Positions 1,795-49,270 of a DNA stretch of 64,000 bases are shown piece by piece. The notes beneath the pieces were generated by a model, which worked only from the letters and a program-made list of their open reading frames with translations, was not told where the DNA came from and ran no database searches. Source of the stretch: Candidatus Omnitrophota bacterium (GTDB lineage Bacteria > Omnitrophota > Gorgyraeia > Zapsychrales > Zapsychraceae); assembly GCA_029261065.1 (NCBI GenBank), contig JAJDCB010000030.1, forward strand, positions 196,876 through 260,875, in the 5' to 3' direction. Both the position numbers and the translations under genes were made by a program. The first letter of the stretch is position 1; every line of letters starts with the position of its first letter.

Positions 1795-1896
1795 ACACTG
1801 TCATTTCCGCCCCTTATGTCATTCCCGCGAAAGCGGGAATCTACTGGAGTAAACACCAATCTTTAGATCCCGGATCAAGTCCGGGATGACAAGTTC
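1795..1896. repeat. REP-like element family A (GTCATTCCCGCGAAAGCGGGAATC hairpin with GAAA tetraloop, plus CCCGGATCAAGTCCGGG hairpin)
   Basis: same unit recurs at 9 other intergenic loci in this window. Confidence 0.85.
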
Positions 1897-1937
1897 CATA
1901 GTTTTTAATATTAACAATAAGTAAACAAGGTGACAAC

Positions 1938-2498
1938 ATGTCTAGCGATACAATAAGTACCGATCGAAGTCGTTTATTAGAAATTTTAATTAAAGAAGCT
2001 TATTTTAAAGAAAAAATTATTCTCTCTTCAGGTAAAGAGAGTGATTATTATATTGATGCGCGGCGGGTGACGTTAAGTGCGGAAGGTGTTTATTTGATTG
2101 CAAAATTGATTCTTGATCATGTGAAAGATGATAACGTTGATGCTATTGGCGGACCAACACTTGGTGCTGATCCAATGGTAGGTGCTGTTGGTTCGTTAAG
2201 TTTTCAGAATCAAAGACCGGTACAAACTTTTATTATTCGCAAAGCTCCAAAAGCGCATGGGAAACAACAACAAATAGAAGGCCCTTCTATCAGTTCCGAT
2301 CAACGCATTGTCATCATCGATGATGTGGCCACTACAGGTAAAGCATTCTTAGAATCCTTAGATGTTCTCGATAAAATGGGGATTAAGCCGCTTAAGGCGA
2401 TATGCATTGTTGATCGCAATGAAGGCGCCAAAGAGGCTTTAGCCGCTCGCGGGTGTGAGCTGGTTTCCCTTTTCGACATTTCCGAAATCCACAAATGA
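1938..2498 (+). CDS. pyrE: orotate phosphoribosyltransferase
   Basis: type I PRTase PRPP-binding motif VIIDDVATTGKA; length 186 aa; overall OPRTase-like layout. Confidence 0.8.
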   Translation: MSSDTISTDRSRLLEILIKEAYFKEKIILSSGKESDYYIDARRVTLSAEGVYLIAKLILDHVKDDNVDAIGGPTLGADPMVGAVGSLSFQNQRPVQTFIIRKAPKAHGKQQQIEGPSISSDQRIVIIDDVATTGKAFLESLDVLDKMGIKPLKAICIVDRNEGAKEALAARGCELVSLFDISEIHK

Positions 2499-3823
2499 AA
2501 AAATTGATCCTTGCCTCAGGTTCTGCGCAACGAAAAACCCTTCTTAAGAATTTAGGGGTGAAGTTTATTGTTCGTCCAAGTTCTGTTGATGAAATACAGT
2601 CGGTTCAAACCACAGTTTCTGCATTAGTCAAAGATAATGCACGTCTTAAGGCTGAAGATATTGCCGCGCGTTATAAAGAAGGTGTTGTCATTGGAGCGGA
2701 CACGGTTGTTTACGCTGGTAATAAAAAAATTATCGGTAAACCGAAATCCTACAAAGAAGCTCGTCAAATCCTCAAACTTTTGTTTTCCAAACCACAATGG
2801 GTTTACACCGGTGTCGTTGTTATTGATATTGCAACGAATAAACGTATCATTGATTATGAAAAGACGCGTGTGCATATGTTGCCTTTAACGGATGAAGAGA
2901 TTAAAACATATCACAGTAAAGTAAATCCTTTTGATAAAGCGGGTGGATTTGATATTGAAGGGTGGGGGAGTATTTTCATTCATCGGATAGAAGGGTGTTA
3001 TTCAAATGTGATTGGTTTACCGATGTCCAAACTGGCGACGATGTTAAAAAAGGTAGGCGTCTCAATATTAAGTGTGTTGATGCTTTGTATTTTAAGCGGT
3101 TGTGCGACAGAATATAATTTAGCTACGGGTAAAGAAGAGACCTTGATGTATGGAACGGATAAGGAGGTGAATATTGGTCGTAAGGTATCGCAGTCCGTTG
3201 AGCGAAGGTATAAAATTAATACAGATGTGGATATTAATGAACGGATAGAAAAAATTTTTGAGCGTATTGTAGCTGTCTCTGATCGTCGTGATATTGTCTA
3301 TTTTATTAAAATTATTGATGAGGAAGATGTTGTGAATGCTGTTAGTTTGCCTGGTGGGTATGTTTATCTTTTTAAAGGGTTGTTGGATAAGCTAGAAAAC
3401 GATGATCAAATTGCCGGTGTCATCGCGCATGAGGTGGGACACATTACGGCAAAACACGGTATTAAAAGATTACAAGCTTCTTATGGGGCGATGTTATTAC
3501 AGATCGCCTCCACACAAGCCAATGGTAATGTGGCAGGGGGCTTAAGTTTTGCGTTACAGTCCTTATTTTTGGAGTATTCACAGAAAGCAGAGTTTGAGTC
3601 TGATCGATTAGCGGTTAAGTATACAAAAAAGGCCGGCTATGATCCCAATGAAATGCTTTATGTTTTAAAAGTTTTAAAAGAAGAGAATGACAAATCTCCT
3701 TTGCGTCAATATTCTTACTGGCGCACACACCCTTTTGTCTCTCAGCGTATTGCTGTTGTTAATGAAGCGATTACGGGGAAGTTAGAGTATCGGGATTATT
3801 TGAAGTTGATTGATAGTTATTGA
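2495..3823 (+). CDS. maf: Maf-like nucleoside triphosphate pyrophosphatase (aa 1-~185) continuous in-frame with a lipoprotein M48-family Zn metallopeptidase (HEVGH)
   Basis: N-terminus MKKLILASGSAQRK... is typical Maf; after aa 183 a lipobox signal peptide (MLKKVGVSILSVLMLCILSGC) and HEVGHITAKH motif; no stop between the two. Confidence 0.6.
   Translation: MKKLILASGSAQRKTLLKNLGVKFIVRPSSVDEIQSVQTTVSALVKDNARLKAEDIAARYKEGVVIGADTVVYAGNKKIIGKPKSYKEARQILKLLFSKPQWVYTGVVVIDIATNKRIIDYEKTRVHMLPLTDEEIKTYHSKVNPFDKAGGFDIEGWGSIFIHRIEGCYSNVIGLPMSKLATMLKKVGVSILSVLMLCILSGCATEYNLATGKEETLMYGTDKEVNIGRKVSQSVERRYKINTDVDINERIEKIFERIVAVSDRRDIVYFIKIIDEEDVVNAVSLPGGYVYLFKGLLDKLENDDQIAGVIAHEVGHITAKHGIKRLQASYGAMLLQIASTQANGNVAGGLSFALQSLFLEYSQKAEFESDRLAVKYTKKAGYDPNEMLYVLKVLKEENDKSPLRQYSYWRTHPFVSQRIAVVNEAITGKLEYRDYLKLIDSY
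3041..3823 (+). CDS. alternative model: separate lipoprotein M48 peptidase initiating at internal ATG
   Basis: ATG at 3041 starts a canonical lipoprotein signal peptide (LSGC lipobox) followed by HExxH peptidase. Confidence 0.35.
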   Translation: MLKKVGVSILSVLMLCILSGCATEYNLATGKEETLMYGTDKEVNIGRKVSQSVERRYKINTDVDINERIEKIFERIVAVSDRRDIVYFIKIIDEEDVVNAVSLPGGYVYLFKGLLDKLENDDQIAGVIAHEVGHITAKHGIKRLQASYGAMLLQIASTQANGNVAGGLSFALQSLFLEYSQKAEFESDRLAVKYTKKAGYDPNEMLYVLKVLKEENDKSPLRQYSYWRTHPFVSQRIAVVNEAITGKLEYRDYLKLIDSY

Positions 3824-3844
3824 GGGGTGATTTCGGGCATGGGA

Positions 3845-3995
3845 TCCTCGCTGGAGTTTACCCCATGGATTCCCGCTTTTGCGGGAATGTCAGATGGGGA
3901 GGGGATGACAAATCCTTGTCATTCCCGTGAGTTTGTCATTCTCGAGAGCTTGTCATTCTCGCGAGTTTGTCATTCCCGCGAAAGCGGGAATCTAT
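3845..3995. repeat. REP-like element family A cluster (several GTCATTC units)
   Basis: GTCATTCCCGCGAAAGCGGGAATC plus degenerate GTCATTCTCG copies; inverted partner GGATTCCCGCTTTTGCGGGAATG. Confidence 0.85.
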
Positions 3996-4008
3996 TTTCG
4001 GTTGCCCT

Positions 4009-4461
4009 ATGATGCTAAAATTAAAATACTACCTCACAGCAGCAATACTCCTTACCCTCAGCGCTTGCTCAAATCAATTAAGCAATAAAGTCTGCTTTGA
4101 AAAACAATGCATAGACGTTGAGGTTGTTACGAAACAAGAAGATGTCATGCGAGGTTTACAGGAACGGGAATCATTGCGAAAAAATTCTGGTATGTTGTTC
4201 GTGTTTCCTAAAAGGGGCAAACATTCCTTTTGGATGAAGGATACCTGGATTCCCTTAGATATGATTTGGTTGGATGCCTCTCAAAGAATTATATATATTC
4301 AAAACAATGTGCCACCTTGCAAAAATGATCCATGCCCATCTTATGGTCCTGATGGTGATTCTTTTTATGTGCTGGAAGTTAATACCGGCTACGTAAAGGA
4401 GTTAGGGTTAAAGGTAGGAGATCGAGCGGAATTTCATATTGTCGATGAGGCACAGTCTTAA
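4009..4461 (+). CDS. DUF192 family lipoprotein
   Basis: lipobox LSAC; conserved DUF192-like IPLDMIWLD...YVLEVNTGY; the ORF-track start at 3967 lies inside the repeat, so ATG 4009 is used. Confidence 0.65.
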   Translation: MMLKLKYYLTAAILLTLSACSNQLSNKVCFEKQCIDVEVVTKQEDVMRGLQERESLRKNSGMLFVFPKRGKHSFWMKDTWIPLDMIWLDASQRIIYIQNNVPPCKNDPCPSYGPDGDSFYVLEVNTGYVKELGLKVGDRAEFHIVDEAQS

Positions 4462-6188: not shown

Positions 6189-7649
6189 ATGTATTATTTT
6201 AATCCATATGCTATTGGGCCGTTATTAACGGGAGTGATGTGTTTTGCTTTAGGGCAATATGTGCATCAGATGGATCGTGAAGATCGGACACGTCAGGCTT
6301 TTTTTGGTTTGAATGTGTTAGCGAGTCTTTGGTGTTTGAGTCAAGCGATGGTGTTAAGTGCTACAGATTTAACGTTAGCCAGCTTTTGGTCTCATGTTAT
6401 GTTCTCAGCCATCATCCTTATGCCTGTCAGCATGTTTCATTTGGCCAGTCATTGGTGTAAGAGATATCAACGACAAAAGCTTATTCGATGGGTGATAAAT
6501 TTTCAAGCCTTATGCCTTGTGATCTTAAGTTGGGGACCCGATTTTTTATCGGGATACACGCCATACTTTTTCGGTCTTTTTCCGCGAGCAGGTGCTTTGA
6601 TGTATTTAGTTGTTTTCTTTATGTTGTCTAATTTCACAATCAGTTTTTTAAACATTAATAAGTATCATTTTTCTCAAAAAAAATTAAAAAAAAGACAAGA
6701 AGCTCGTTTTGTGATGTTATCGTTCTTGATTCTTCTTTTAAGTTATTCGGATGTTTTTGTTAGTTATCAACAAAGTTTGTATCCTTTAGGTTATATTGTT
6801 CTCTTTGGATTTTCTTTAAGTATGTCATTGTTTCTTTTAAGAAAAAGTGTGGCTTTATTGCATGAGCGTGTAAGGAGTGTTGAGGAGCAAATGCAATTTA
6901 AATCTAATGAGGCATCTATAGTTTCTGAAGAACTGAAAGGCGTGCAGTTTCAGCTCTTGGAAGCTGGAAAAAAATCAGCATTAGTAAGTTTGAGTGCAGG
7001 AATCCTTCATCAAATTAGCCAACCTATTACAGCAATTTATGGGTTTATCAAATTTTTAAAAAAAGAGGTAAAAGAAGATCACGAGTTTTATAAGCCGATC
7101 CATCTGGTAGATGAGCAAACGATGTATTTAAAGCAGATGCTTGGAAATTTGATGGAGCTTGTGCAGCATAAAGATATAAAGAAGGAAGCTATTAATGTTA
7201 ATGAACCTGTAGAAAATGCTGTTAATTTATTAACGGATGAATTACGCATTGGACGGGTTAAGTGGGAGTTAGACCTAGCTGAGGATTTGCCTCAGATTTG
7301 TGCGGATAACATTAATCTTCAACAAATTTTCATGAACTTTATTATTAATGCCATTCAAGCCCTTGGAACGTTGCCCAAGGGGGAGGAGCGTCAGTTATTG
7401 GTGTCGAGTAAGGTTGATGAGGATAACAAATTTGTTGCAGTGTCTTTTCAAGATTCTGGTCCGGGGGTCAGTAAAGGAGAGGTGGAGCGGATATTTGAGC
7501 CGTTTTATTCTACGAAAGAAAAGGCTGTTGGGATTGGCTTAGCCCTTTGTCAGGATTTGGTTGAGGAGCATGGGGGGCAGATTTTGGTGGATTCAAGTGT
7601 TAAGCAGGGTGTTAGTTTTGTGGTGAAGTTGCCGGTGATTGGATCGTAA
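6189..7649 (+). CDS. sensor histidine kinase (membrane N-terminal domain, HisKA, HATPase_c)
   Basis: H-box LHQISQPITAIYGF; G-box region GIGLALCQDLVEEHGGQI; multi-TM N-terminus. Confidence 0.8.
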   Translation: MYYFNPYAIGPLLTGVMCFALGQYVHQMDREDRTRQAFFGLNVLASLWCLSQAMVLSATDLTLASFWSHVMFSAIILMPVSMFHLASHWCKRYQRQKLIRWVINFQALCLVILSWGPDFLSGYTPYFFGLFPRAGALMYLVVFFMLSNFTISFLNINKYHFSQKKLKKRQEARFVMLSFLILLLSYSDVFVSYQQSLYPLGYIVLFGFSLSMSLFLLRKSVALLHERVRSVEEQMQFKSNEASIVSEELKGVQFQLLEAGKKSALVSLSAGILHQISQPITAIYGFIKFLKKEVKEDHEFYKPIHLVDEQTMYLKQMLGNLMELVQHKDIKKEAINVNEPVENAVNLLTDELRIGRVKWELDLAEDLPQICADNINLQQIFMNFIINAIQALGTLPKGEERQLLVSSKVDEDNKFVAVSFQDSGPGVSKGEVERIFEPFYSTKEKAVGIGLALCQDLVEEHGGQILVDSSVKQGVSFVVKLPVIGS

Positions 7650-7689: not shown

Positions 7690-7772
7690 CATGTCGTCCC
7701 CGCGGAAGCGGAGATCCAATAATAGAAATATTATTACTTATTGGAGGTTCACGCTTCTGCGGGAATGACATG
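7690..7772. repeat. REP-like element family A (variant)
   Basis: GTCGTCCCCGCGGAAGCGGAGATC ... TCTGCGGGAATGACATG inverted pair. Confidence 0.75.
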
Positions 7773-7913
7773 TTTACTATGACACGATTACGATGACTTG
7801 TTTTAAGCGGATTATGTTGTATATTTAAAGTAGCACAAAGGGGGGATAAACCATTTAGGTTTATGCCCCTATTTTTTTGGATCTTAGGCTTGTTGCAATG
7901 TAAAGGACATCTA

Positions 7914-10070: not shown

Positions 10071-10099
10071 GATTGCCTTGTTTGTATTGTTGATTATGG

Positions 10100-10195
10100 A
10101 AGCGAGTGATAGAGTGCTAGAGTGATAAAGTGGTAGGTTGAGTTTTTATTAACAATTTTTATTATCACTTTATCACTCTAGCACTTTACCACTAA
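10100..10195. repeat. inverted array of 8-mer units (GAGTGATA/CACTCTAC family B) forming a long hairpin
   Basis: left arm GAGTGATAGAGTGCTAGAGTGATAAAGTGGTAG, right arm ATCACTTTATCACTCTAGCACTTTACCACT; located between aceF stop and lpdA start. Confidence 0.8.
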
Positions 10196-10217
10196 ATAAA
10201 TTTAATCTTAATCCAAT

Positions 10218-11539: not shown

Positions 11540-11675
11540 TGTCATCTCAAGACAGCAATGTCATCCTCGCGAAAGCGGGGATCCATTAGTAGTTATAAAG
11601 ATTACGAAGTTCCCGCTGGGGCTTACCCAATAGGATTCCCGCTTTCGCGGGAATGACAGATGGAGCGGGGATTAC
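11540..11675. repeat. REP-like element family A (inverted pair)
   Basis: GTCATCCTCGCGAAAGCGGGGATC ... GGATTCCCGCTTTCGCGGGAATGAC. Confidence 0.85.
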
Positions 11676-11677
11676 TT

Positions 11678-14359: not shown

Positions 14360-14389
14360 AGGAATTCCTTATGATTGGTTATAATGATT

Positions 14390-14484
14390 AGAGTGATAGA
14401 GTGGTAAAGTGATAGAGTGGTAAGAATTGCGGAATTAACTCCATACTATCACTTTATCACTCTACCACTTTATCACTTTTTTTG
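14390..14484. repeat. family B 8-mer inverted array followed by T7 run
   Basis: AGAGTGATAGAGTGGTAAAGTGATAGAGTGGTAAG ... TATCACTTTATCACTCTACCACTTTATCACT TTTTTTT; sits in the aceE 5' region. Confidence 0.8.
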
Positions 14485-14599
14485 TCTCAAGTTCACAGCA
14501 TTGTATTATGGTTTGGGGCAATGTGCAAGAATTAAATGAGGGGATGTTGATGGGGAGAAGCAAATAAGTGTCCTTCGTCCTTGTCTTGTATTTTATTTT

Positions 14600-14735
14600 T
14601 GCCTTGCATGTTATTCGTGCCCTGTATGTCATTTCCGCCCCATATGTCATTCCCGCGAAAGCGGGAATCTCCTGGAGCCAAGTTTGTTATAAAACCCTAT
14701 TTCAGATCTCGGATTAAGTCTGGTACGACAAGCTC
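14600..14735. repeat. REP-like element family A with TGTCATT tandem units
   Basis: TGTCATTTCCGCCCCATATGTCATTCCCGCGAAAGCGGGAATC + AGATCTCGGATTAAGTCTGGTACGACAAG. Confidence 0.85.
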
Positions 14736-17606: not shown

Positions 17607-17660
17607 AAATAATCCGTGACAGGCACTCATTATTGAAATAGCGTGCCTGTCACTATTAAT
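17607..17660. repeat. 52-bp hairpin element family C (AATCCGTGACAGGCACTCATTATT-N-GCGTGCCTGTCACTATTAAT)
   Basis: GTGACAGGCAC / GTGCCTGTCAC 11-bp inverted stem; 3 copies in window. Confidence 0.85.
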
Positions 17661-18420: not shown

Positions 18421-18473
18421 GATAATCCGTGACAGGCACTCATTATTTAAAAAGCGTGCCTGTCACTATTAAT
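18421..18473. repeat. family C hairpin element
   Basis: GATAATCCGTGACAGGCACTCATTATTTAAAAAGCGTGCCTGTCACTATTAAT. Confidence 0.85.
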
Positions 18474-18490: not shown

Positions 18491-19072
18491 ATGACTAAAT
18501 CAAAACAAAAAAAAGTGCGGTGCGCGTGGGTTGGGGCAAGTAAACCCCTTTACGAGGAGTATCATGATGCCGAGTGGGGTGTGCCGGTGCATGATGATCG
18601 GGTGCATTTTGAGTTTTTGATTTTGGAAGGGGCGCAGGCGGGGTTAAGTTGGTATACGATTTTGCAGAGAAGAGAGGGGTATCGTAAAGCGTTTAAGGGG
18701 TTTGATGCGCAAAAAGTTGCTAAGATGACAGATGCGCAATTGGAAAAGCAGTTGTTGAATCCTGGAATTATTCGTAATCGTCTTAAAGTTTTTTCCGCTC
18801 GTAAAAATGCACAAGTGTTTCTCAAAATTCAAAAAGAATTTGGTAGTTTTGATAAGTATGTTTGGTCTTTTGTTGGGGGTAAGCCCATCATCAATAAACG
18901 GAAGACCTTAAAAAATTTACCTGCTACAACTCCTGAAAGCGACGCCCTCTCCAAAGACCTCAAAAAACGAGGCATGTCCTTTGTTGGATCAACCATCATC
19001 TACGCGCACATGCAAGCCACGGGGTTGGTTAATGATCATACGGTGGATTGTTGGCGGCACCATAATCCGTGA
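18491..19072 (+). CDS. tag: DNA-3-methyladenine glycosylase I
   Basis: YHDAEWGVPVHDDRVHFEFLILEGAQAGLSWYTIL is the Tag family signature; Cys/His Zn site near C-terminus. Confidence 0.85.
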   Translation: MTKSKQKKVRCAWVGASKPLYEEYHDAEWGVPVHDDRVHFEFLILEGAQAGLSWYTILQRREGYRKAFKGFDAQKVAKMTDAQLEKQLLNPGIIRNRLKVFSARKNAQVFLKIQKEFGSFDKYVWSFVGGKPIINKRKTLKNLPATTPESDALSKDLKKRGMSFVGSTIIYAHMQATGLVNDHTVDCWRHHNP

Positions 19073-19114
19073 CAGGCACTCATTATTGGAAAAAGCGTGC
19101 CTGTCACTATTAAT
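19062..19114. repeat. family C hairpin element overlapping the tag stop codon
   Basis: CATAATCCGTGACAGG... ; the TGA stop of tag is the TGA inside CCGTGACAGG. Confidence 0.85.
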
Positions 19115-19158: not shown

Positions 19159-19614
19159 ATGTCAAGCGCTATTGCCACCAACAAAAAAGCTTTTCGCGAT
19201 TTTTTCCTCTCTGATAAATGGGAATGCGGGATTGCCCTTTTAGGTGGTGAGGTTAAATCCATTCGAGCCGGGCATGTCAATTTTAAAGATACCTTTGCTC
19301 GCATCGATAAAGGCGAGATCTTTCTTTATAACCTTCATATTGAGCAATATAACGCTGCCAGCCACATGAATAAAGAGCCGGATCGCGTGCGTAAACTTTT
19401 GATGCATAAGAAAGAAATTAAGCGTCTTGAAGGTAAACTAAATCAGCAGGTGGGAACGCTCATTCCAACGAAGATTTATTTTAATAAGCGAGGCTTAATT
19501 AAGGTTGAGATTGCCTTGGGACGAGGAAAGAAGCTTTATGATAAGCGTGAAGCGATTAAGAAGCGGGATGTGGATCGCCAGATTGGGCGGGAGATGCGTA
19601 ATCGGCGGGGGTGA
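19159..19614 (+). CDS. smpB: SsrA-binding protein
   Basis: GIALLGGEVKSIR...YNLHIEQY...KIYFNKRG pattern typical of SmpB; 151 aa. Confidence 0.9.
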   Translation: MSSAIATNKKAFRDFFLSDKWECGIALLGGEVKSIRAGHVNFKDTFARIDKGEIFLYNLHIEQYNAASHMNKEPDRVRKLLMHKKEIKRLEGKLNQQVGTLIPTKIYFNKRGLIKVEIALGRGKKLYDKREAIKKRDVDRQIGREMRNRRG

Positions 19615-19616
19615 TT

Positions 19617-19812
19617 GAGTGATAGAGCTAATTAGTGATAGAGTGGTAGAGTGGTAAGAGGGTATTGAAAAGGAAGTTAGTGATAGGTTCTTATCTATTT
19701 GTAAATATTTAATTTAACACCAATAAGCATTCAATCAACTCTATCACGTTACCACTCTACCACTCTACCACTCTACCACTTTACCACTTTATCACTCTAT
19801 CACTTAATCACT
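19617..19812. repeat. family B 8-mer arrays in inverted orientation (7 tandem CACTCTAC-like units on right arm)
   Basis: GAGTGATAGAG...GTGGTAGAGTGGTAAG / CCACTCTACCACTCTACCACTCTACCACTTTACCACTTTATCACTCTATCAC. Confidence 0.85.
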
Positions 19813-22126: not shown

Positions 22127-22542
22127 GGGGGTGACATGGTTTCGACTTGGGTTATCGGAGTTTGAGTGGCATGCGGAGGACGTCTGGTTGGCCTCCTAAA
22201 AAATCCAGGCACACAATAAACGCTAACGATGAAACGTTGACGTTTGCTAGCTTGACTAATTCAACAATGGACAGCGATGTTCCTGTTGAACCATCACTAG
22301 CAACAGCACCAGCCTTATCGGTCTAATTCACTGGTAAGCCCTCTTGTAGCAGGCCTGTGGGTTACAAGTGGAACAAGCAGGCTGGTCTTATAAATTTGCT
22401 TCATTTATAAGATAAGATTTAGAAGCTAGTTTCATTTACGTTTGTTTATTTAGAGAAGTGAAGCGAAATTAAAAATAAACTAAGCATGTAGAAGCTCTTA
22501 CAAAGGAACCAAAGGACCGGGGTTCGATTCCCCGCACCTCCA
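22127..22542 (+). ncRNA. ssrA: tmRNA (transfer-messenger RNA)
   Basis: 5' GGGGGTGACATGGTTTCGAC and 3' GGACCGGGGTTCGATTCCCCGCACCTCCA (T-arm + acceptor) match tmRNA ends; tag frame starts GCT AAC GAT GAA (ANDE...) at 22222, stop at 22324. Confidence 0.85.
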
Positions 22543-22683
22543 TTTAGTTGTAGTGCATCTCCACCCCATTGAGGTGCATAGGCTTATGATAGTATATTGT
22601 TTTAATTCTCGATTGGTGCCCATTTAGTGCCCAAAGTATCACATTTTTCTTGCATTCATTCTATTGACTATTATAATAAACCC

Positions 22684-22893
22684 ATGAGTAAGATTTTTAA
22701 TCCTTTAAAAGATGTAGGTCGATTGATTGAGCCATTTCCTGGCGAATGGGTCACATTATCTTCTGATAAAAAGCAAGTTGTTGGGCATTCAAAAAAAATG
22801 GAAACAGCATTAAATCAAGCTTACAAAAAAGGCGTTGAACATCCTTTCCTTATTAAATCTCCTGATGGTAACATCGCTGCAGTCATCTATTGA
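22684..22893 (+). CDS. small DUF5678-like protein (cassette 1, gene A)
   Basis: GEWVTLSSDKKQVVGHSKKMETALNQAYKKG...P.LIKSP fits the DUF5678 pattern (recalled from memory); 64% identical paralog at 23661. Confidence 0.6.
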   Translation: MSKIFNPLKDVGRLIEPFPGEWVTLSSDKKQVVGHSKKMETALNQAYKKGVEHPFLIKSPDGNIAAVIY

Positions 22894-23333
22894 GTTATAT
22901 CACTCTCCCATATACAGAATTAGTTATTCCGGCAAAAAACAATAGGCCAAGAAAGATTGTTCGTCGTCCATTATTAAATACAAAATTATTTTATGGTAAG
23001 GCAGAAACGATGTTTGATTTTTCATCTCTTGTAGACTCTGGTGCCGATTTTTGTATCTTTCCTGCAAAGTATGGATCGATACTCGGGTTGGATGTTAAAA
23101 AAGCTCAATCAATTATGACTTATGGCATTGGTGGCCAAGAGACGATATATTTTCATAAAGTTAAGATAGGTGTGTTTATTGGAAATGAGATTTGGAAATT
23201 TACAGTCAAAGCTGGATTTTCTTATAGAATGAATATAGAAGGAACAGGCTTGCTTGGTCGCAAAGGTTTTTTTGATCAATTTAAAGAAATTGTATTTAAT
23301 CAAAAGAAAAAGATGTTTCGTATAATGGAATAA
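22890..23333 (+). CDS. retropepsin-like aspartic protease (cassette 1, gene B)
   Basis: LVDSGADFCIFP (D-S-G-A catalytic motif), GIGG flap-like, GLLGRKGFF; TTG start overlapping gene A stop (TTGA). Confidence 0.65.
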   Translation: MSYITLPYTELVIPAKNNRPRKIVRRPLLNTKLFYGKAETMFDFSSLVDSGADFCIFPAKYGSILGLDVKKAQSIMTYGIGGQETIYFHKVKIGVFIGNEIWKFTVKAGFSYRMNIEGTGLLGRKGFFDQFKEIVFNQKKKMFRIME

Positions 23334-23460
23334 TTTAGTGCCCAAACGGTGCCCATCTTACACCAAAACAACGGTAACGAACCGTAACCAAATGTAAACA
23401 ACCGCATAGTTTAAATTAGTTGTATTCGACGACAATTTAGTTAATCGGTTGATATTTATG

Positions 23461-23500
23461 GGGTTACACCGACGGGGATTATCGATTCCCCGTACCTCCA
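23461..23500 (+). repeat. tmRNA 3'-end-like fragment (T-arm + acceptor half)
   Basis: GGGTTACACCGACGGGGATTATCGATTCCCCGTACCTCCA vs tmRNA GGACCGGGGTTCGATTCCCCGCACCTCCA; similarity continues ~45 nt downstream. Confidence 0.8.
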
Positions 23501-23660
23501 TTTAGTTGAAGTGCATATCCATCCTGTTGCGATGTATAGACTTATGATTTCATAAAGTATTAATTTTCAATTGGTGCCCATTTAGTGCCCAAAAGTTATA
23601 GTAATTTCAATATGATTTATAATTGCAAACATTATAGTTTTGTAATATGATAAATTAATT

Positions 23661-23870
23661 ATGAAAAAGAAATTTATTCCTGAAAAAGATATGGCAGACG
23701 TTATACTCCCCTTTGCAGGGCAATGGGTCACGTTGTCGTCGGATAAGACGAAGGTTTTGGGGCATTCTAAAAAGATGGAAACCGCTTTAAACCAAGCCTA
23801 CAAAAAGGGTGAGAGTACACCACATTTAATCAAATCTCCAGATTCCAGCACCTCAGTATTTATTTTTTGA
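23661..23870 (+). CDS. small DUF5678-like protein (cassette 2, gene A)
   Basis: paralog of 22684..22893 (GQWVTLSSDKTKVLGHSKKMETALNQAYKKG). Confidence 0.6.
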   Translation: MKKKFIPEKDMADVILPFAGQWVTLSSDKTKVLGHSKKMETALNQAYKKGESTPHLIKSPDSSTSVFIF

Positions 23871-24310
23871 AAACACATACTTTACAATACACAAAACTAT
23901 CAATCCCCTCTCAAGGAAAAGTTCCAAAAAAGGAATTATACTGTCCTCTTTTAGATACTTTTTTATTTAACAAGTCTATTCAAACTCATTTTTCATTCAA
24001 ATCCATTGTTGATTCTGGAGCCGATTTTTGTGTGTTTCCTGAAAAGTTTGGAAAGTTGATTGGATTAGATGTTAAAGCTGGTGATAAAGTTTTAACTTTT
24101 GGTGTTGGTGGTATTGAGACACTTTATTTTCATAAAATTCAGATAGGGGTACATATTAAAGGTGAACTTTGGAAATTAGATTGTAAAGCTGGCTTTTCTG
24201 CAAAGCTAAATCCAAAAGGAATTGGTCTGCTTGGACGGAAAGGATTTTTTGATCAATTTGCAGAGATTGCCTTTAATCAAAATAAAAAAATGTTCCGTAT
24301 TAAAGAATAA
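23867..24310 (+). CDS. retropepsin-like aspartic protease (cassette 2, gene B)
   Basis: IVDSGADFCVFP, GVGG, GLLGRKGFF; TTG start overlapping stop, same as cassette 1. Confidence 0.65.
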   Translation: MKTHTLQYTKLSIPSQGKVPKKELYCPLLDTFLFNKSIQTHFSFKSIVDSGADFCVFPEKFGKLIGLDVKAGDKVLTFGVGGIETLYFHKIQIGVHIKGELWKLDCKAGFSAKLNPKGIGLLGRKGFFDQFAEIAFNQNKKMFRIKE

Positions 24311-24438
24311 TGTAGTGCCCAAATGGTGCCCATCTTACACCAAAACAACGGAAAACAACCGTACTCAAATGTAAACAATCGCACAGTTTAAATTAGTTGT
24401 TTCCGACGATATTTTAGTTAATTTGTTGATATTAATGA

Positions 24439-24477
24439 GGTTACAGCGACGGGGCTTATCGATTCCCCGCACCTCCA
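24439..24477 (+). repeat. tmRNA 3'-end-like fragment (third copy)
   Basis: GGTTACAGCGACGGGGCTTATCGATTCCCCGCACCTCCA. Confidence 0.8.
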
Positions 24478-24675
24478 CTTTGATTCGCTCAAATGCTTTC
24501 GCGTTTGAGCTACGCAGAAGTAAATTCTTACTCAGATCTAAAAGTTTGAGCGAGGCGAGTGCTTCTACGAAGCTCCAACACGAAAGTATTGGAGCGTAGT
24601 AGAGCGCTGCAGTTCAAGATTATTAATTGAACGAAGCCTAAAAAATTCAAATGGTTAAAAAGTAAGGGTGAAAAA

Positions 24676-25245
24676 ATGATAAAGAAAAGTCTTCTGATTA
24701 TAATTTTACTCATGATGATATGTCCTCGCACATCAGCTGAAAGTGTGCGTGAGCGATTAAGAAAAGCTCGGATGCCTAAGGATAGTACCCATGAAAATGA
24801 GACACCTAAAAAAGTAAAACAAAAGACTACTTCTCAAGAAAGTTTATTTGGAAAACCTTTCAACCCAAGTAAGATCGAATTTAGCCCTTATTATGCAGGG
24901 CAATTATTTTTTACCGAAATTAACGAAAAAGATCTGTCATCAAGGACTGTTAGTATTATCACCCTTATTGGTGCCCATAAAGATACATTCGAGGAGGAGA
25001 AAATTGCTAGTGAGAATCAGGTTTTCCAAAAATCTAATTCTAATACGGGGAATAAGGGTGGTGGCCTGACTTTAGTTAATAAAGGAAGAATAGTACCTAT
25101 TGAGGGAGATTGGGACGTGAAGGTATCTTTAGGAAAAGTTGAAAATAATAAGATATCAGGGCATATATTGATTACCGTACCTGAGCATAATACGAAGTTA
25201 AACAGAAATTTTATCGCAAATATAAAGCCTCGTCGAAAAGAATAG
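24676..25245 (+). CDS. secreted hypothetical protein (cassette 3 cargo)
   Basis: signal peptide then AESVRERLRKAR; ends before the third copy of the right-boundary motif. Confidence 0.55.
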   Translation: MIKKSLLIIILLMMICPRTSAESVRERLRKARMPKDSTHENETPKKVKQKTTSQESLFGKPFNPSKIEFSPYYAGQLFFTEINEKDLSSRTVSIITLIGAHKDTFEEEKIASENQVFQKSNSNTGNKGGGLTLVNKGRIVPIEGDWDVKVSLGKVENNKISGHILITVPEHNTKLNRNFIANIKPRRKE

Positions 25246-33589: not shown

Positions 33590-33790
33590 ATGGATGTCAT
33601 TCTCGCCTCTTATGTCATTCCCGCGAAAGCGGGAATCCTATGGGATAAACTCCAGCGGGAATCTACAGGAGCAGAACTTGTTATAAATACCAAATTTTAG
33701 ATCCCGGATCAAGTCTGGGACGACAATTTCCGCTTTGTTACCTTAATTGTGATGAAGTACAGAAAGCGGGAATGACATTATGTCTTTTAA
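33590..33790. repeat. REP-like element family A composite
   Basis: GTCATTCCCGCGAAAGCGGGAATCC...CCAGCGGGAATC...AGATCCCGGATCAAGTCTGGGACGACAA...AGAAAGCGGGAATGACA. Confidence 0.85.
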
Positions 33791-34902: not shown

Positions 34903-35022
34903 TGTCATTCCCGCCCCTTATGTCATTCCCGCGAAAGCGGGAATCCTACGGGGTAAACTCCAGCGGGGAACTATTAATAGTTATCATCCTTATGAGGTCC
35001 CCGCTTTCGCGGGGATGACACG
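34903..35022. repeat. REP-like element family A (inverted pair)
   Basis: GTCATTCCCGCGAAAGCGGGAATCC...CCCCGCTTTCGCGGGGATGACA. Confidence 0.85.
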
Positions 35023-35041
35023 TTTACTTTAAATATCTAGT

Positions 35042-36430
35042 ATGCCCCCAAAATCCAAACCCAAACTCACCGAAGGCCCTGTTGGCGCGCTTCTTATCAG
35101 ACTTACCATCCCCATGATCTGGGGACTGTTTTCAATTTTTACATTTAATTTAGTCGACACCATTTTCGTTGCGCGTCTTGGAACGACACATCTAGCTGCC
35201 ATTAGTTTTACATTTCCGGTTGTTATGGTTGCCACCAATCTTGCTATTGGTTTAGGGATTGGAACCTCATCGGTTGTCGCTCGGGCCATTGGTGAAAATG
35301 ATCATAAAAAAATTCAAAATTTAGCGACTAGTAGTTTAGTTTTGTCTTTAAGTGTTGTGTTTATATTTATGACGATTGGTTTTTTAACGATGGATCCGTT
35401 GTTTAAATTTATTGGTGCCAACGAAGAAACGTTAGTGCTCATTAAAGATTATATGAACATATGGTATGTTGGTTTGGTTTTTCTTTTTGTTCCACTGGTT
35501 GGAAATTATATTATTCGTGCGACAGGAGATATGTTTTGGCCCGGTATTATTATGGTGATCTCCTCAGTGGTTAATTTGATTTTAGATCCTATCTTCATTT
35601 TTGGTTTGTTTGGTTTTCCACGTTTAGAGATGAAGGGAGCGGCCTTGGCGACATTGGTGGCTTGGGTGATGACATTTTGTGCATCAAGCGCGATTCTATT
35701 TTTTCGAGAAAAATTTATTTCTCTACGTTGTCCGTCTTGGTCTGTGATTGTGAAATCTTGGAAGTCTATCATGCATGTCGCGCTTCCAGCGGCTGGCACG
35801 CATATGATTGTTCCTGTGGGAGTAGGTATTGTTATGAGTATGGTCGCCGTCTATGGAAAGGAAGCTGTAGCGGCTTTTGGTGCAGCTAGCCGTATTGAGA
35901 TGTTTGCGTTCATTATTGTTCTCGCTCTTTCTGCTGTGATAGGCCCATTTGTCGGACAGAATGTGGGGGCTAAAAGATGCGATCGTATTAATGAGGCGCT
36001 AAAAAAGTGTTATCGGTTTTGTATCTATTTTGGACTTCTGGAAGCGATTGTGTTAGCCTACTTCTCTAAAGAGGTGATGATGCTTTTTGATAGTGATCCG
36101 CTTGTGATTTATTACGGTCGGATGTTTCTTCTTATCATGCCTTTGGCTTATTGCGCTCATGGAATCATTTTTATTGCCTCAGGCGTCTTTAATGGTTCAG
36201 GGCATCCGTTACCAGCTGTTGTTGTATCGGTGTGTCGTATGTTTGTGCTTTATATTCCTTTGGCGTTTTGTTTTAAGGGTATGTTTGGGGTTCTGGGGAT
36301 TTATAGCGCTTATACTATTGCGACTTTGATTATGGGTGTGGTTGCGGTGAAGTGGAGTTTTAAGTATATTAGATCTTTTGAAAGTAATAATGTTGTTCCC
36401 GCGAAAACGGGGACCTCGGAATCGTTATAA
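35042..36430 (+). CDS. MATE family efflux transporter
   Basis: 12-TM layout, 462 aa; C-terminal ~12 codons are encoded by a family A repeat. Confidence 0.75.
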   Translation: MPPKSKPKLTEGPVGALLIRLTIPMIWGLFSIFTFNLVDTIFVARLGTTHLAAISFTFPVVMVATNLAIGLGIGTSSVVARAIGENDHKKIQNLATSSLVLSLSVVFIFMTIGFLTMDPLFKFIGANEETLVLIKDYMNIWYVGLVFLFVPLVGNYIIRATGDMFWPGIIMVISSVVNLILDPIFIFGLFGFPRLEMKGAALATLVAWVMTFCASSAILFFREKFISLRCPSWSVIVKSWKSIMHVALPAAGTHMIVPVGVGIVMSMVAVYGKEAVAAFGAASRIEMFAFIIVLALSAVIGPFVGQNVGAKRCDRINEALKKCYRFCIYFGLLEAIVLAYFSKEVMMLFDSDPLVIYYGRMFLLIMPLAYCAHGIIFIASGVFNGSGHPLPAVVVSVCRMFVLYIPLAFCFKGMFGVLGIYSAYTIATLIMGVVAVKWSFKYIRSFESNNVVPAKTGTSESL

Positions 36431-36548
36431 TTATTAATGGATTCCCACTTTCGTGGGAATGACAAGGGTAATATGTCATCCCCGCGAAAGCGGGGATCTC
36501 GAAACAGTAATATTATTAATGGATCCCCGTTTTCACGGGGACGACACT
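36391..36548. repeat. REP-like element family A cluster (3 hairpin units)
   Basis: GTTCCCGCGAAAACGGGGAC, GATTCCCACTTTCGTGGGAATGACA, GTCATCCCCGCGAAAGCGGGGATC, GGATCCCCGTTTTCACGGGGACGACA. Confidence 0.85.
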
Positions 36549-44834: not shown

Positions 44835-44970
44835 TGTCGTCCCCGCCCCATTTGTCATTTCCGCGAAAGCGGGAATCCATGGATTAAACTCCAGCGGGGA
44901 TCCAAAAAGAGTAATAGTAAAATTATTATTTTCTCTATTACGAGGTTCCCGGTTTCGCGGGAATGACAAT
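44835..44970. repeat. REP-like element family A (inverted pair)
   Basis: GTCATTTCCGCGAAAGCGGGAATCCATGGATTAAACTCCAGCGGGGATCC ... GGTTCCCGGTTTCGCGGGAATGACA. Confidence 0.85.
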
Positions 44971-46632: not shown

Positions 46633-46642
46633 TAATTCTCCA

Positions 46643-47876: not shown

Positions 47877-48458
47877 ATGGGAACAGTGATTGTTGTTTTA
47901 GCAGTATTATTTTTTATTGTTGTCGGTTTAATTATGTACGGCGTCTCGATCTATAATGGCTTGATTAGTCTTTTTCATAATGTGGATAAGGCTTGGTCGA
48001 ATATTGATGTGTTGCTTAAGCAGCGGCATGATGAGATTCCGAAGTTGATTAAGGTGTGTGAAGGGTATATGAAGCATGAACGCGATACGCTTGAAAGTAT
48101 TACTAAAGCGCGTACAAGTTGTATAAACGCGGGAAGTGTTGGGGAATCAGCGCAATCAGAGGGTATGCTAACTCAGGCTTTGAAATCTTTATTTGCAGTG
48201 GCGGAAAATTATCCGGATCTTAAGGCGAATACAGGGTTTTTACAGCTTCAGGATCGGGTTAGTTATTTGGAAAGTCAAATCGCTGATCGACGTGAAATGT
48301 ATAACGATTCCACAAATAACTACAATATCCGGATTCATCAAATTCCAGATATGTTTGTCGCGGGCATGATGAATATGAAGGATAAAGAATTGTTTAAGGT
48401 CTCAGAGACAGATCGTCAGGATGTGGATATTAAATTTAATTTTCCAGATGGTAAATAG
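47877..48458 (+). CDS. lemA: LemA family protein
   Basis: N-terminal TM then LemA-like ...NIDVLLKQRHDEIPKL...AENYPDLKAN. Confidence 0.75.
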   Translation: MGTVIVVLAVLFFIVVGLIMYGVSIYNGLISLFHNVDKAWSNIDVLLKQRHDEIPKLIKVCEGYMKHERDTLESITKARTSCINAGSVGESAQSEGMLTQALKSLFAVAENYPDLKANTGFLQLQDRVSYLESQIADRREMYNDSTNNYNIRIHQIPDMFVAGMMNMKDKELFKVSETDRQDVDIKFNFPDGK

Positions 48459-48482
48459 TGGCGTTATAAACTTCGTTTGGGA

Positions 48483-48524
48483 TTATAATTAACAGGAAGG
48501 TGTTTTTTGGGTATACTTAATTAA
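48483..48524 (+). promoter_or_regulatory. conserved promoter/operator motif (copy 2)
   Basis: TTATAATTAACAGG-N15-TATACTTAATTA, followed by CCCCGCCTTTGGCGGGG hairpin in the leader. Confidence 0.5.
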
Positions 48525-48625
48525 AGGTATTTGGTTAATACCCCGCCTTTGGCGGGGTCAATTCGTGCTTCTAGTTTATGCCTCCTTTGGTCGCATAAAC
48601 TAAGCTTTCATTGAGGAGATTCAAA

Positions 48626-49105
48626 GTGCAAAGGTCACATACGGTTTTAAAAAAAGCGATCAATAAGGTTGGGGTTAAGGCATTGGCTGCGAAATTGGGG
48701 GTGTCTCAGACGCTTGTTTATAAATGGTGTCAGCCCTCAGTGCATGAAGAGAGTCCAGATCTCTATGATGTGAGTGGGGCGCAAAATCCGTTGGATCGGT
48801 TAAGAAAGGTTTATGAATATACCAAAGATCCTGAAATCATTAATTGGATTTGTAAATTAGCTGATGGTTATTATGTGAAGAACCCTACTCTAAATAAGAA
48901 AAGCCATGAAACGGTTGTGGTTAAAAACACACAAAAGCTTATTAAAGAATTTTCAGAAACATTGGCAGCGATTTCAACATCTTACAGCGTTGATAAGAAA
49001 ATTACGGCTAAAGAGGCTAAGGTGATTCGTAAGGAATGGGAGGATTTGAAGAGGATTGGAGAAGGATTTGTGAAGGCGTGTGAGATGGGGAAGTTTGATA
49101 AGTAG
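48626..49105 (+). CDS. lambda CII-like HTH DNA-binding protein
   Basis: ALAAKLGVSQTLVYKWC resembles the CII HTH (AEKLGVDKSQISRWK); GTG start with GAGGAG RBS. Confidence 0.5.
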   Translation: MQRSHTVLKKAINKVGVKALAAKLGVSQTLVYKWCQPSVHEESPDLYDVSGAQNPLDRLRKVYEYTKDPEIINWICKLADGYYVKNPTLNKKSHETVVVKNTQKLIKEFSETLAAISTSYSVDKKITAKEAKVIRKEWEDLKRIGEGFVKACEMGKFDK

Positions 49106-49119
49106 TCAGCTCGCAGGAA

Positions 49120-49270
49120 GGTTCCCGCTGGAGTTTACCCCATAGGATTTCCGTTTTCACGGGAATGACATAAGGGACGGGAATGACACGATTACTTTTA
49201 ATATTTGTAGAAAACAAAAATGTTATCCCCGCCCCATTTGTCATTCCCGCAAAAGCGGGAATCCATTAAT
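49120..49270. repeat. REP-like element family A cluster
   Basis: GGATTTCCGTTTTCACGGGAATGACA...GGGAATGACACG...GTCATTCCCGCAAAAGCGGGAATCC. Confidence 0.85.

What the first reader, a model, noticed from the sequence alone, without database searches (positions are those of the whole stretch)
1795..49270. Abundant REP-like palindromic element (GTCATTCCCGCGAAAGCGGGAATC, GAAA tetraloop) at 10 intergenic loci
The unit forms a CCCGC-GAAA-GCGGG hairpin. It usually occurs as inverted pairs 40-60 nt apart, plus accessory modules (GGAGTTTACCCC, AGATCCCGGATCAAGTCCGGGA). It lies after many genes, runs into ORF ends (the MATE C-terminus is repeat-encoded), and creates spurious ORF starts (3967, 33772). Likely a MITE or REP/BIME-type element. 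Density is ~1 per 6 kb.
Basis: seen in the sequence. Interest (0 to 1): 0.55.

Follow-up and report, generated by a model that had tools for sequence, protein, structure and literature searches.

The report
Ssn-nuclease hairpin repeats, gene-less miniature copies
The repeated 24-base hairpin belongs to an already described repeat family found across bacteria (Neisseria dRS3/NTS, the 'CGTC-tagged' REPs), which small GIY-YIG 'Ssn' nucleases cut as single-stranded DNA; in this uncultured Omnitrophota genome it occurs as gene-less miniature copies inserted between genes, so it is a new member of a known kind.

Summary
There are 22 hairpin units at 11-12 intergenic loci (0 expected by chance). The stems keep pairing through compensatory changes.

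The elements are REP/MITE-like, but they are not RAYT-type REPs.
- The unit, (T/C)GTC-ATTCCCGC-GAAA-GCGGGAAT-C, is the CGTC-1 REP of Di Nocera et al. 2013. This is the same as Neisseria dRS3/NTS, the "Ssn-related motif" of Chenal et al. 2025. Small GIY-YIG Ssn nucleases bind and cut it only as single-stranded DNA.
- The exact 24-mer occurs in at least 120 genome stretches from many phyla and in 109 viral contigs.
One is a second hairpin type with a CTTGA loop, in inverted orientation. The other is the leader that sits directly upstream of ssn in three metagenome loci.
- The window copies are therefore ssn-less miniatures of an NTS-ssn-NTS unit.
- Four of four orthologous intergenic sites in a syntenic Omnitrophota relative are empty, so the copies were most likely gained by insertion.
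- No target-site duplications were found, and the window holds no RAYT, other transposase or ssn gene.
- Whether the host genome encodes ssn could not be tested.

Verdict: new member of a known kind, moderate interest.

The parts
1799..1893 (+). Miniature element, heterodimer: 5'-arm half-site (1799-1810), GAAA hairpin (1818-1841, +), inverted CTTGA-loop hairpin (1866-1890, -)
   Evidence: The orthologous gap in L271 is 10 nt against 186 nt here.
3844..3910 (-). Short form (nested hairpin only): half-site 3899-3910, GAAA hairpin 3868-3891, leader plus extra 3' arm 3845-3864. It begins right after the ancestral DUF192 ATG (3841-3843).
3917..3995 (+). Tandem array of three 17-nt 5'-arm half-sites (3917, 3934, 3951), then a full GAAA hairpin 3969-3992. 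It creates the spurious TTG start at 3967.
   Evidence: (family D16)
7692..7770 (+).
   Evidence: The HK|RR gap is 213 nt here against 45 nt in L271.
11559..11676 (-). Full miniature between aceE and aceF: half-site, hairpin 11634-11657 (-), leader 11610-11629, AT-rich spacer, partner hairpin 11560-11583 (+)
   Evidence: The orthologous gap is 17-19 nt in L271 and L272.
14589..14733 (+). Half-site array (14589-14644), GAAA hairpin 14646-14669, inverted CTTGA-type hairpin 14705-14729
   Evidence: (D7)
33595..33779 (+). Half-site, hairpin 33614-33637, leader 33642-33665, inverted CTTGA hairpin 33700-33724, orphan half-site 33766-33777 (-) that creates the ATG at 33772
34903..35020 (+). Best-preserved miniature: half-site 34903-34914, hairpin 34922-34945, leader 34950-34973, spacer, partner 34996-35019 (-)
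   Evidence: Sub-threshold Rfam WsnRNA46 match.
36391..36546 (+). Two tandem doublets (36392/36440 and 36475/36522). The first unit encodes the C-terminal tail of the MATE protein.
44835..44968 (+). Full miniature: half-site, hairpin 44854-44877, leader 44881-44904, 39-nt AT-rich spacer, partner 44944-44967 (-)
49121..49188 (-). Short form (nested hairpin only): half-site 49177-49188, hairpin 49146-49169, leader plus 3' arm 49121-49141
49221..49266 (+). Half-site 49221-49232 plus hairpin 49240-49263, with no partner

Best explanation
The repeats are members of the CGTC-1 REP, dRS3/NTS or 'Ssn-related motif' (SRM) family. Here they take the form of gene-less miniature derivatives of an NTS-ssn-NTS unit.

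Shown here.
1. The unit has a (T/C)GTC tag, an 8-bp stem ATTCCCGC, a GAAA loop and a C tail. Its core is identical to the Neisseria NTS core.
2. The stem is maintained by compensatory changes. The tag G and the tail C are invariant.
3. A full copy consists of one or more 5'-arm half-sites, the hairpin, a 26-nt leader ending in an extra 3' arm, an AT-rich spacer, and an inverted partner hairpin (GAAA or CTTGA loop).
4. The left 70 nt folds as a hairpin nested inside a hairpin. It is the same sequence that lies 30-40 nt upstream of ssn in related metagenome loci.
5. Four orthologous intergenic sites are empty in a syntenic relative.
6. There are no target-site duplications.

Taken from the literature. 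As single-stranded DNA the hairpin is bound, and cut a few bases 5' of the tag, by a ~95-aa GIY-YIG Ssn nuclease. In Neisseria this lowers the integration of transforming DNA that carries the motif.

Inferred.
- The window copies arose by loss of ssn from full units.
- They spread through a single-strand, TSD-less route. This could resemble REPIN/IS200-type hairpin-guided movement, or it could be repair and gene conversion after Ssn nicking.
- A trans-acting Ssn encoded elsewhere in this genome, or formerly so, drives or drove the spread.
- Side effects on neighbouring genes (C-terminal extensions, displaced starts) are by-products.
For: Identity of the unit.
- The published SRM pattern gives 9 hits against 0.04 in shuffles.
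- The NTS consensus and the Ssn biochemistry come from PMC11893778.
- The CGTC-1 definition comes from PMC3733652.
- The exact 24-mer is in >=120 genome stretches across phyla and 109 viral stretches.

Structure.
- Fold of the unit and of whole elements.
- Covariation and invariant G1 and C24.
- Nested fold with mid-stem covariation: cognate against permuted partners, 6 of 5000.

Link to ssn.
- The only neighbouring family recurring in 3 of the 120 genome loci and consistently sited right next to the motif is a small GIY-YIG protein.
- IS-like hairpin-ssn-hairpin units with half-site arrays.
- The composite lies directly upstream of ssn in L235, L238 and L255.
- The left module is collinear in alignment A1.
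- 34 of 37 composite matches in metagenome loci have no ssn next to the match, and many are followed by an inverted partner hairpin.

Gain by insertion.
- Empty sites in L271, and also in L272 and L273 for aceE|aceF.
- L271 holds no such hairpin in 22.7 kb.
Against: - No ssn gene lies in the 64-kb window (best tblastn E = 0.09).
- The rest of the genome could not be read. None of the top 120 Ssn homologues sits on a contig of the window's length.
- The strict 28-nt Neisseria NTS is not matched at <=1 mismatch, because the flanks differ.
- The AT-rich spacer cannot be shown to derive from the 3' end of ssn.
- A GIY-YIG nuclease has no known strand-transfer activity, so the spreading mechanism is unproven.
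- The relatives are only about 80% identical in AceE. Exact insertion junctions, and the choice between gain and loss, therefore rest on parsimony.
Confidence: 0.75

Rival explanations
1. RAYT-mobilised REP/REPIN/BIME elements. A domesticated IS200-like tyrosine transposase elsewhere in the genome would recognise the hairpins and spread them.
For: The general anatomy is REPIN-like: inverted doublets with a lineage-conserved spacer, no TSD and an intergenic position.
Against: - The tag is (C/T)GTC, not GTAG.
- Di Nocera et al. found no RAYT flanked by CGTC repeats in any species.
- No transposase-like family recurs within 300 bp of the motif in 120 loci.
- None of about 57 window ORFs matches a Y1 transposase.
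- The left module is the ssn leader.
Confidence: 0.04
2. Immobile structural or regulatory hairpins, such as transcription terminators, mRNA 3'-end stabilisers or sRNA genes, kept by selection at each site.
For: - The copies lie between co-directional genes, often just after stop codons.
- The GAAA loop is also a stable RNA tetraloop.
- The whole element gives a sub-threshold match to the Wolbachia sRNA family WsnRNA46 (29.5 bits against a gathering score of 65.3).
Against: - Only 1 of 22 hairpins is followed by a T tract. The window's convincing terminator-like sites are unrelated sequences.
- A local regulatory role cannot explain an identical 24-mer in many phyla.
- The orthologous sites are empty in relatives.
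- Copies overrun a start codon and a C-terminus.
Confidence: 0.12
3. Target sites for a site-specific recombinase of the IS110/Piv type. In Neisseria, dRS3 is the integration site of filamentous Nf prophages.
For: Chenal et al. state that dRS3 is the target of a specific phage recombinase, and they cite Kawai et al. 2005. From my own knowledge, IS110-family elements often target REPs.
Against: - No IS110-type gene or prophage lies next to any of the 12 copies.
- No such family recurs next to the motif in 120 loci.
- This role would not explain how the repeats arose.
Confidence: 0.05

Closest known systems
Neisseria dRS3 / NTS repeats and the SsnA GIY-YIG ssDNA nuclease (Chenal et al. 2025, PMC11893778)
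   Same: - The 24-nt core is identical (GTCATTCCCGCGAAAGCGGGAATC lies inside CGTCATTCCCGCGMAVGCGGGAATCYRG).
- The copies are oriented hairpins with a GTC tag and a C tail, and they are numerous.
- In related metagenome loci the same composite flanks a ~95-aa GIY-YIG gene in a hairpin-ssn-hairpin arrangement.
   Different: - The first base is T, not C.
- The YRG tail is not kept.
- The host is an Omnitrophota MAG of about 37% GC.
- Copies carry extra modules (half-site arrays, a nested hairpin leader, a CTTGA-loop partner) that the main text of that paper does not describe.
- No ssn lies in the window, and a role in transformation is unknown for this host.
CGTC-tagged REPs, family CGTC-1 (and CGTC-2) of Di Nocera et al. 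2013 (PMC3733652); Rickettsia RPE-6
   Same: - The tag is CGTC or TGTC.
- The stem is 8 bp and begins with AT.
- The loop is 4 nt (5 nt for the second hairpin type), followed by a short tail.
- Most copies are inverted dimers, both homo- and heterodimers.
- Copies lie between co-directional genes, and some run into coding sequence.
   Different: That survey found them mainly in Alphaproteobacteria and reported no dedicated enzyme. Here the link to the ssn unit is visible, and the host phylum is new relative to that list.
REPIN/REP-RAYT systems and IS200/IS605
   Same: - The doublets are hairpin-based and TSD-less, with a conserved spacer.
- There are many non-autonomous copies against few protein-coding copies.
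- Recognition is presumably of single-stranded DNA.
   Different: The tag differs (GTAG against CGTC). The associated protein is a GIY-YIG nuclease rather than an HUH tyrosine transposase. No strand-transfer chemistry is known for it.
Rfam RF02625 WsnRNA46 (Wolbachia sRNA 46)
   Same: The model is itself a long hairpin built from two inverted tag/tail units (GUGUCAU...GAUGACAC). The whole element 34906-35033 aligns end to end with it.
   Different: The score of 29.5 bits is far below the gathering score of 65.3, and the stem sequences differ. The element is not a member of this family.

Membership tests
NTS / Ssn-related motif (SRM) repeats | Match to the strict Neisseria NTS 28-mer CGTCATTCCCGCGMAVGCGGGAATCYRG with at most 1 mismatch | tested here: not met
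   0 hits at <=1 mismatch, 2 at <=2 and 8 at <=3. The inner 24 nt are identical. The differences are the first base (T) and the 3' YRG.
NTS / Ssn-related motif (SRM) repeats | Match to the published degenerate SRM pattern HGTCWYN(0-2)YYVSBRHN(0-5)WNVSBRGN(0-2)RNCYNB, enriched over shuffles | tested here: met
   9 hits against a mean of 0.04 (maximum 1) in 50 dinucleotide shuffles.
NTS / Ssn-related motif (SRM) repeats | Forms a hairpin as single-stranded DNA, with conserved unpaired tag and tail (the bases critical for SsnA cutting and binding) | tested here: met
   DNA fold -9.0 kcal/mol, z = -4.8. 92.9% of stem cells are paired, and 4 of 8 pairs show compensatory changes. G1 and C24 are invariant, and T2 and C3 are >=90% conserved.
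NTS / Ssn-related motif (SRM) repeats | A cd10448-type ssn gene in the same genome, typically flanked by the motif | tested here: inconclusive
   There is none in the 64-kb window. The rest of the genome was not retrievable. The same composite lies directly upstream of ssn in L235, L238 and L255. ssn is present in 6 of 120 genome stretches that carry the 24-mer.
NTS / Ssn-related motif (SRM) repeats | Strand-specific cleavage by Ssn on ssDNA only | not testable with these tools
   This needs purified protein and oligonucleotides.
CGTC-1 REP (Di Nocera et al. 2013) | CGTC or TGTC tag, 8-bp stem beginning AT, 4-nt loop, short unpaired tail, mostly inverted dimers | tested here: met
   Alignment A2. 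Nine doublets have spacers of 23-66 nt.
RAYT-associated REP / REPIN / BIME | GTAG tag at one end of the palindrome | tested here: not met
   The tag is TGTC or CGTC in all copies.
RAYT-associated REP / REPIN / BIME | A Y1 (HUH) transposase gene flanked by the repeats | tested here: not met
   No such ORF appears among about 57 Pfam-scanned window ORFs. No transposase-like family recurs near the motif in 120 loci. The whole genome was not tested.
Classical (DDE-type) MITE | Target-site duplications flanking terminal inverted repeats | tested here: not met
   In 95 dimers from the window and all loci, identical flanks of 2-9 nt occur at chance level: 2 of length 2 and 1 of length 4, against expectations of 0.7 and 0.08.
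Non-autonomous derivative of a protein-coding element (MITE in the broad sense) | Ends collinear with those of a coding unit, and presence/absence at orthologous sites | tested here: met
   The left 70 nt aligns with the ssn-upstream region (A1). The right hairpin aligns, but the spacer does not. Four of 4 syntenic sites are empty in L271.
Intrinsic terminator | GC-rich hairpin followed by a T tract | tested here: not met
   Only the unit at 3972-3991 qualifies, 1 of 22.
Rfam RF02625 WsnRNA46 | Score at or above the gathering threshold | tested here: not met
   29.5 bits against 65.3. No family reaches its threshold on any element.

The most novel reading that the evidence does not exclude
Hairpin-ssn-hairpin units may be genuinely mobile selfish elements driven by a GIY-YIG single-strand nuclease. 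They would spread without target duplications and would be exchanged between phyla. Three observations point this way: Ssn proteins 75-89% identical in Nitrospirota, Chloroflexi, Acidobacteriota and others, an identical 24-mer from CPR bacteria to Proteobacteria, and copies on viral contigs. These units would spawn gene-less miniatures like the ones here. The tandem half-site arrays and the hairpin-in-hairpin leader would then be footprints of the insertion mechanism, namely insertion into hairpin loops or repeated nick-and-repair. This would answer the question left open in 2013 of how CGTC REPs multiply.
Probability: 0.35. Interest if true: 0.7.

Novelty: new member of a known kind. Interest (0 to 1): 0.38.

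Why it matters
The repeat family and its nuclease are published, so the window adds a host and some anatomy rather than a new principle.
- The host, Candidatus Omnitrophota, is new.
- The miniatures are ssn-less, and their left end is the ssn leader.
- That leader folds as a nested hairpin with covariation.
- 5'-arm half-sites occur in tandem arrays.
- Four orthologous sites are filled here and empty in a relative.

These points bear on an open question: whether Ssn-associated repeats are mobile, and by what mechanism.

For annotation, the copies create false starts (3967, 33772) and false C-terminal extensions (the MATE tail). They also give rise to the familiar junk peptides 'VIPAKAGI' and 'IPAFAGMT'.

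Tried and rejected
- Rfam at gathering thresholds found only the tmRNA, with nothing on the elements.
- A transposase next to the motif was sought by clustering all ORFs within 300 bp of 161 motif copies. This gave only repeat-encoded junk ORFs, unrelated housekeeping and ABC-type families each seen in 3 loci, and the small GIY-YIG family.
- ssn in the window: no hit.
- Retrieving the source genome failed. The exact proteins sit on a 395,355-bp NCBI contig that the contig look-up does not hold, and only a 5.5-kb Logan contig came back.
- An empty-site test through the MATE gene failed because its relatives are not syntenic.
- L238 and L255 were tested for synteny with the window's pilin region. 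They are not syntenic.
- Homology between the AT-rich spacer and the 3' end of ssn is not demonstrable.
- NCBIfam has no curated model for these proteins. The closest solved structure is the UPF0213 protein BH0048, 1ZG2.
- The CRISPR idea raised by the tandem 36-bp units in L117 was dropped. The spacers between units are identical, so it is a plain tandem array.

Full report
**1. The observation**

The 24-mer GTCATTCCCGCGAAAGCGGGAATC occurs 15 times at <=3 mismatches. None occurs in 100 dinucleotide-preserving shuffles. The core CCCGCGAAAGCGGG occurs 14 times against 0.01 expected.

A Hamming scan finds 19 GAAA-loop units. It also finds 3 units of a second hairpin, GTCATCCCGGACTTGATCCGGGATC, with a CTTGA loop, always in inverted orientation.

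The units lie at 11-12 intergenic loci between 1799 and 49266. All copies sit between co-directional genes.

The unit folds as single-stranded DNA at -9.0 kcal/mol, z = -4.8. Whole elements fold with z between -3.6 and -6.9. Across the 19 units, 92.9% of stem cells are paired. Four of 8 pairs carry compensatory changes, and no shuffle out of 500 reaches the observed covariation score.

- The last 14 residues or so of the MATE protein (NNVVPAKTGTSESL) are repeat-encoded. Its relatives end earlier.
- The TTG start at 3967 is spurious; the real start is 4009.
- The ATG at 33772 lies in an orphan half-site.

**2. What it is**

They come from Alpha-, Beta-, Gamma- and Deltaproteobacteria, Bacteroidota, Chloroflexi, CPR groups, Verrucomicrobia, Planctomycetes, Acidobacteria, Nitrospirae, Omnitrophota and a Rickettsia endosymbiont. 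My own estimate of the chance expectation is about 0.004, from 4^24 and the stated 596 Gb.

In these genomes the motif typically forms an inverted doublet, GTCATTCCCGCGAAAGCGGGAATC-CAG..spacer..CTG-GATTCCCGCTTTCGCGGGAATGAC. The flanks outside the doublet are unconserved.

I clustered every ORF within 300 bp of 161 motif copies. Among the families recurring in 3 loci, the only one consistently sited right next to the motif was a ~95-aa GIY-YIG protein. It is present in 6 of the 120 stretches.

A literature search on the sequence led to Chenal et al. 2025 (PMC11893778).
- The Neisseria 'NTS' is CGTCATTCCCGCGMAVGCGGGAATCYRG, and it contains the classical dRS3 repeat.
- It is bound and cut, only as ssDNA and only on one strand, by the GIY-YIG nuclease SsnA.
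- The cut lies a few bases 5' of the motif.
- The three bases before the palindrome matter most for cutting, and the C after it matters most for binding.
- Homologues with their own 'Ssn-related motifs' (SRM) are widespread.
- NTS-ssnA-NTS resembles an insertion sequence.

Di Nocera et al. 2013 (PMC3733652) had already classified the same repeats as 'CGTC-tagged REPs'.
- CGTC-1 has a CGTC or TGTC tag, an 8-bp stem starting AT and a 4-nt loop. It equals Neisseria dRS3 and Rickettsia RPE-6.
- CGTC-2 has a 5-nt loop.
- Most copies are inverted dimers, and they 'apparently lack a dedicated transposase'.

The window units fit CGTC-1, and the CTTGA-loop units fit CGTC-2. The published SRM pattern gives 9 hits against 0.04 in shuffles. 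The strict Neisseria 28-mer is not matched at <=1 mismatch, because the first base is T and the YRG tail is not kept. In the 19 window copies the tag G and the tail C are invariant. These lie within the positions (tag and tail) that the mutational scan of SsnA singled out.

From my own memory, not checked here: d(GCGAAAGC), the apex of this hairpin, is a classic unusually stable DNA mini-hairpin.

**3. Anatomy in this lineage**

A full copy is 118-134 nt (34903-35020, 44835-44968, 11676-11559 on the minus strand). It has five parts:
- one or more 5'-arm half-sites, TGTCATTCCCGC plus 6-7 nt, with a period of 17-18 nt;
- the hairpin;
- a 26-nt 'leader', CTAYGGGGTAAACTCCA-GCGGGRAWC, ending in an extra 3' arm;
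- an AT-rich spacer;
- an inverted partner hairpin.

Two copies are a short form, consisting of the left 68 nt only (3844-3910, 49121-49188). Half-sites form arrays of 3-4 at 3917-3967 and 14589-14644.

The left module folds as a hairpin within a hairpin.
- The outer stem is ATTCCCGC:GCGGGAAT.
- A 3' bulge, TAAACTCCA, follows.
- The mid stem is CCCnnn:nnnGGG.
- The inner element is the NTS hairpin.

Among 17 distinct copies from the window and other loci, the mid stem covaries (TTT/AAA, GT/AC, GCT/AGC). Cognate partners pair better than permuted ones, with 6 of 5000 permutations doing as well. Chenal et al. showed that SsnA tolerates extensions in the loop. The outer hairpin could therefore be a second substrate; this is inference.

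**4. Link to ssn**

One metagenome scan used the hairpin 3' arm plus leader (GCGGGAATCCN{5,8}TAAACTCCAGCG). It returned 36 loci.

In L235, L238 and L255 the match lies 30-40 nt directly upstream of an ssn start. After the stop codon comes an inverted hairpin. The L238 and L255 unit reads: TGTCATTCCCGCCCCTTTGTCATTCCCGCGGAAGCGGGAATCCAGGGGTAAACTCCAGCGGGAATCC...ATG-ssn-TAATGACTGGATTCCTGCATTCGCAGGAATGAC.

Alignment A1 shows the window's left module collinear with this region. The other 34 of the 37 matches have no ssn next to the match, and many are followed by a GAAA- or CTTGA-type partner. That is the same miniature as in the window.

Units from unrelated phyla (L048, L088, L115, L120) show the same hairpin-ssn-hairpin plan. 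L120 and L048 carry symmetric half-site arrays.

The AT-rich spacer cannot be shown to derive from the ssn 3' end. The window itself has no ssn. No RAYT, IS110 or other transposase appears among about 57 Pfam-scanned ORFs.

**5. Host and gain or loss**

All named close homologues of the window's AceE (72-81% identity) come from Candidatus Omnitrophota MAGs.

Locus L271 (AceE 81%) is syntenic with window 1.4-14.4 kb. It holds no such hairpin in 22.7 kb.

| Site | Window gap (nt) | L271 gap (nt) |
|---|---|---|
| 102-aa ORF \| PRT | 186 | 10 |
| Maf-M48 \| DUF192 | 185 | 14 |
| HK \| RR | 213 | 45 |
| aceE \| aceF | 179 | 19 |

For aceE|aceF the gap is 17 nt in L272 and 46 nt in L273. In L275 it is 84 nt and holds an unrelated palindrome.

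At the DUF192 site, both genomes keep TGA..GTGATTTCnGGCATG. In L271 that ATG is the start codon. In the window the element begins immediately after it, an in-frame stop follows, and the gene starts at 4009.

The copies are therefore most parsimoniously insertions in the window's lineage. No target-site duplications are seen around 95 dimers. This fits a single-strand, REPIN/IS200-like route, or a repair-mediated route, rather than a DDE route.

Only 1 of 22 hairpins looks like an intrinsic terminator.

**6. Mechanism and its status**

- Shown: family identity, structure, the link of the left module to ssn, and polymorphism between filled and empty sites.
- From the literature: the ssDNA-specific, strand-specific cut by Ssn, and its effect on transformation in Neisseria.
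- Inferred: the window copies are ssn-deletion derivatives mobilised in trans. How a GIY-YIG nuclease would achieve insertion is unknown.
- Not resolved: whether this genome encodes ssn.

Two further observations agree with a multi-copy, horizontally moving unit, though they do not prove it. Close Ssn homologues (75-89% identity) occur in Nitrospirota, Chloroflexi, Desantisbacteria, Syntrophales and Acidobacteriota, mostly on very short contigs. The exact 24-mer is on 109 IMG/VR stretches, two of them with ssn.

**7. Comparison and verdict**

The closest known systems are Neisseria dRS3/NTS with SsnA, and the CGTC-1 and CGTC-2 REPs. The functional analogy is with REPIN-RAYT, but membership there fails on both the tag and the enzyme.

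The best Rfam similarity is a sub-threshold, end-to-end match to Wolbachia sRNA WsnRNA46, whose model is itself such a dimer (29.5 bits against 65.3).

The finding is a new member of a known kind. It has some anatomical detail that the main text of the 2025 paper does not mention: a search of that text for 'tandem' and 'Omnitroph' found nothing. It also gives comparative evidence that the copies were gained by insertion. Interest is moderate.

Noticed in passing
window 10096-10201, 14383-14485, 19609-19812: A second repeat family: inverted arrays of 8-bp tandem units, (GAGTGATA/GAGTGGTA)n ... (TATCACTC/TACCACTC)n. The arrays are separated by 20-110 nt. They lie in three intergenic or promoter regions: E3|E2, upstream of aceE, and upstream of ORF 19847. 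They could be iterated binding sites or another hairpin element.
   Followed up: partly
window 17609-17660, 18422-18473, 19062-19113: Three copies of a 52-nt hairpin, ATAATCCGTGACAGGCACTCATTATTGAAATAGCGTGCCTGTCACTATTAAT, each just after one of three consecutive genes.
   Followed up: no
window 22127-25325: Rfam finds a full tmRNA at 22127-22545 (179.8 bits), which ARAGORN did not report. Its 3' end is followed by repeats of about 977 bp (22524-25325) that carry 147-aa ORFs without Pfam matches. This may be an array of integrated elements at the tmRNA gene.
   Followed up: no
window 3829-3843 and 3993-4011: The sequence before the ancestral DUF192 start (GTGATTTCGGGCATG) resembles the sequence before the present start (TATTTTCGGTTGCCCTATG). 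This could be a ~15-nt duplication made when the two back-to-back copies were inserted, or it could be chance.
   Followed up: partly
L273 6100-7000: An Omnitrophota relative carries a different small GIY-YIG gene (85 aa, 6382-6639, minus strand). It is flanked on both sides by its own ~130-bp repeat (GGGGGTGATCTGGTTCTGCTTCGTTTCCGACATTTTGAATTGGAG...) and not by NTS hairpins. This may be a parallel nuclease-repeat pair.
   Followed up: no
L275 6711-6794: In the closest AceE relative, the aceE|aceF gap is filled by an unrelated long palindrome (CGGATAGCGGTTAGCG...CGCTAACCGCTAT). The same site is thus occupied by different hairpin elements in different lineages.
   Followed up: no
L117 5790-5930 (Ignavibacterium album MAG): The 24-mer occurs as a head-to-tail tandem array of 36-bp units (hairpin plus TATTTTTTCTCT), rather than as inverted doublets.
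   Followed up: no
L126-L234 (IMG/VR contigs): The exact 24-mer is on 109 stretches of viral contigs. In 26 of them a 5'-arm half-site lies upstream of the motif (most often 18-19 nt), and two of the viral stretches (L149, L198) carry ssn. Phages may carry the system between hosts.
   Followed up: partly
window 7765-7794 and 35015-43: The right end of the element (ATGACA) supplies a -35-like hexamer for promoter-like matches facing the downstream genes. These are consensus matches only.
   Followed up: no
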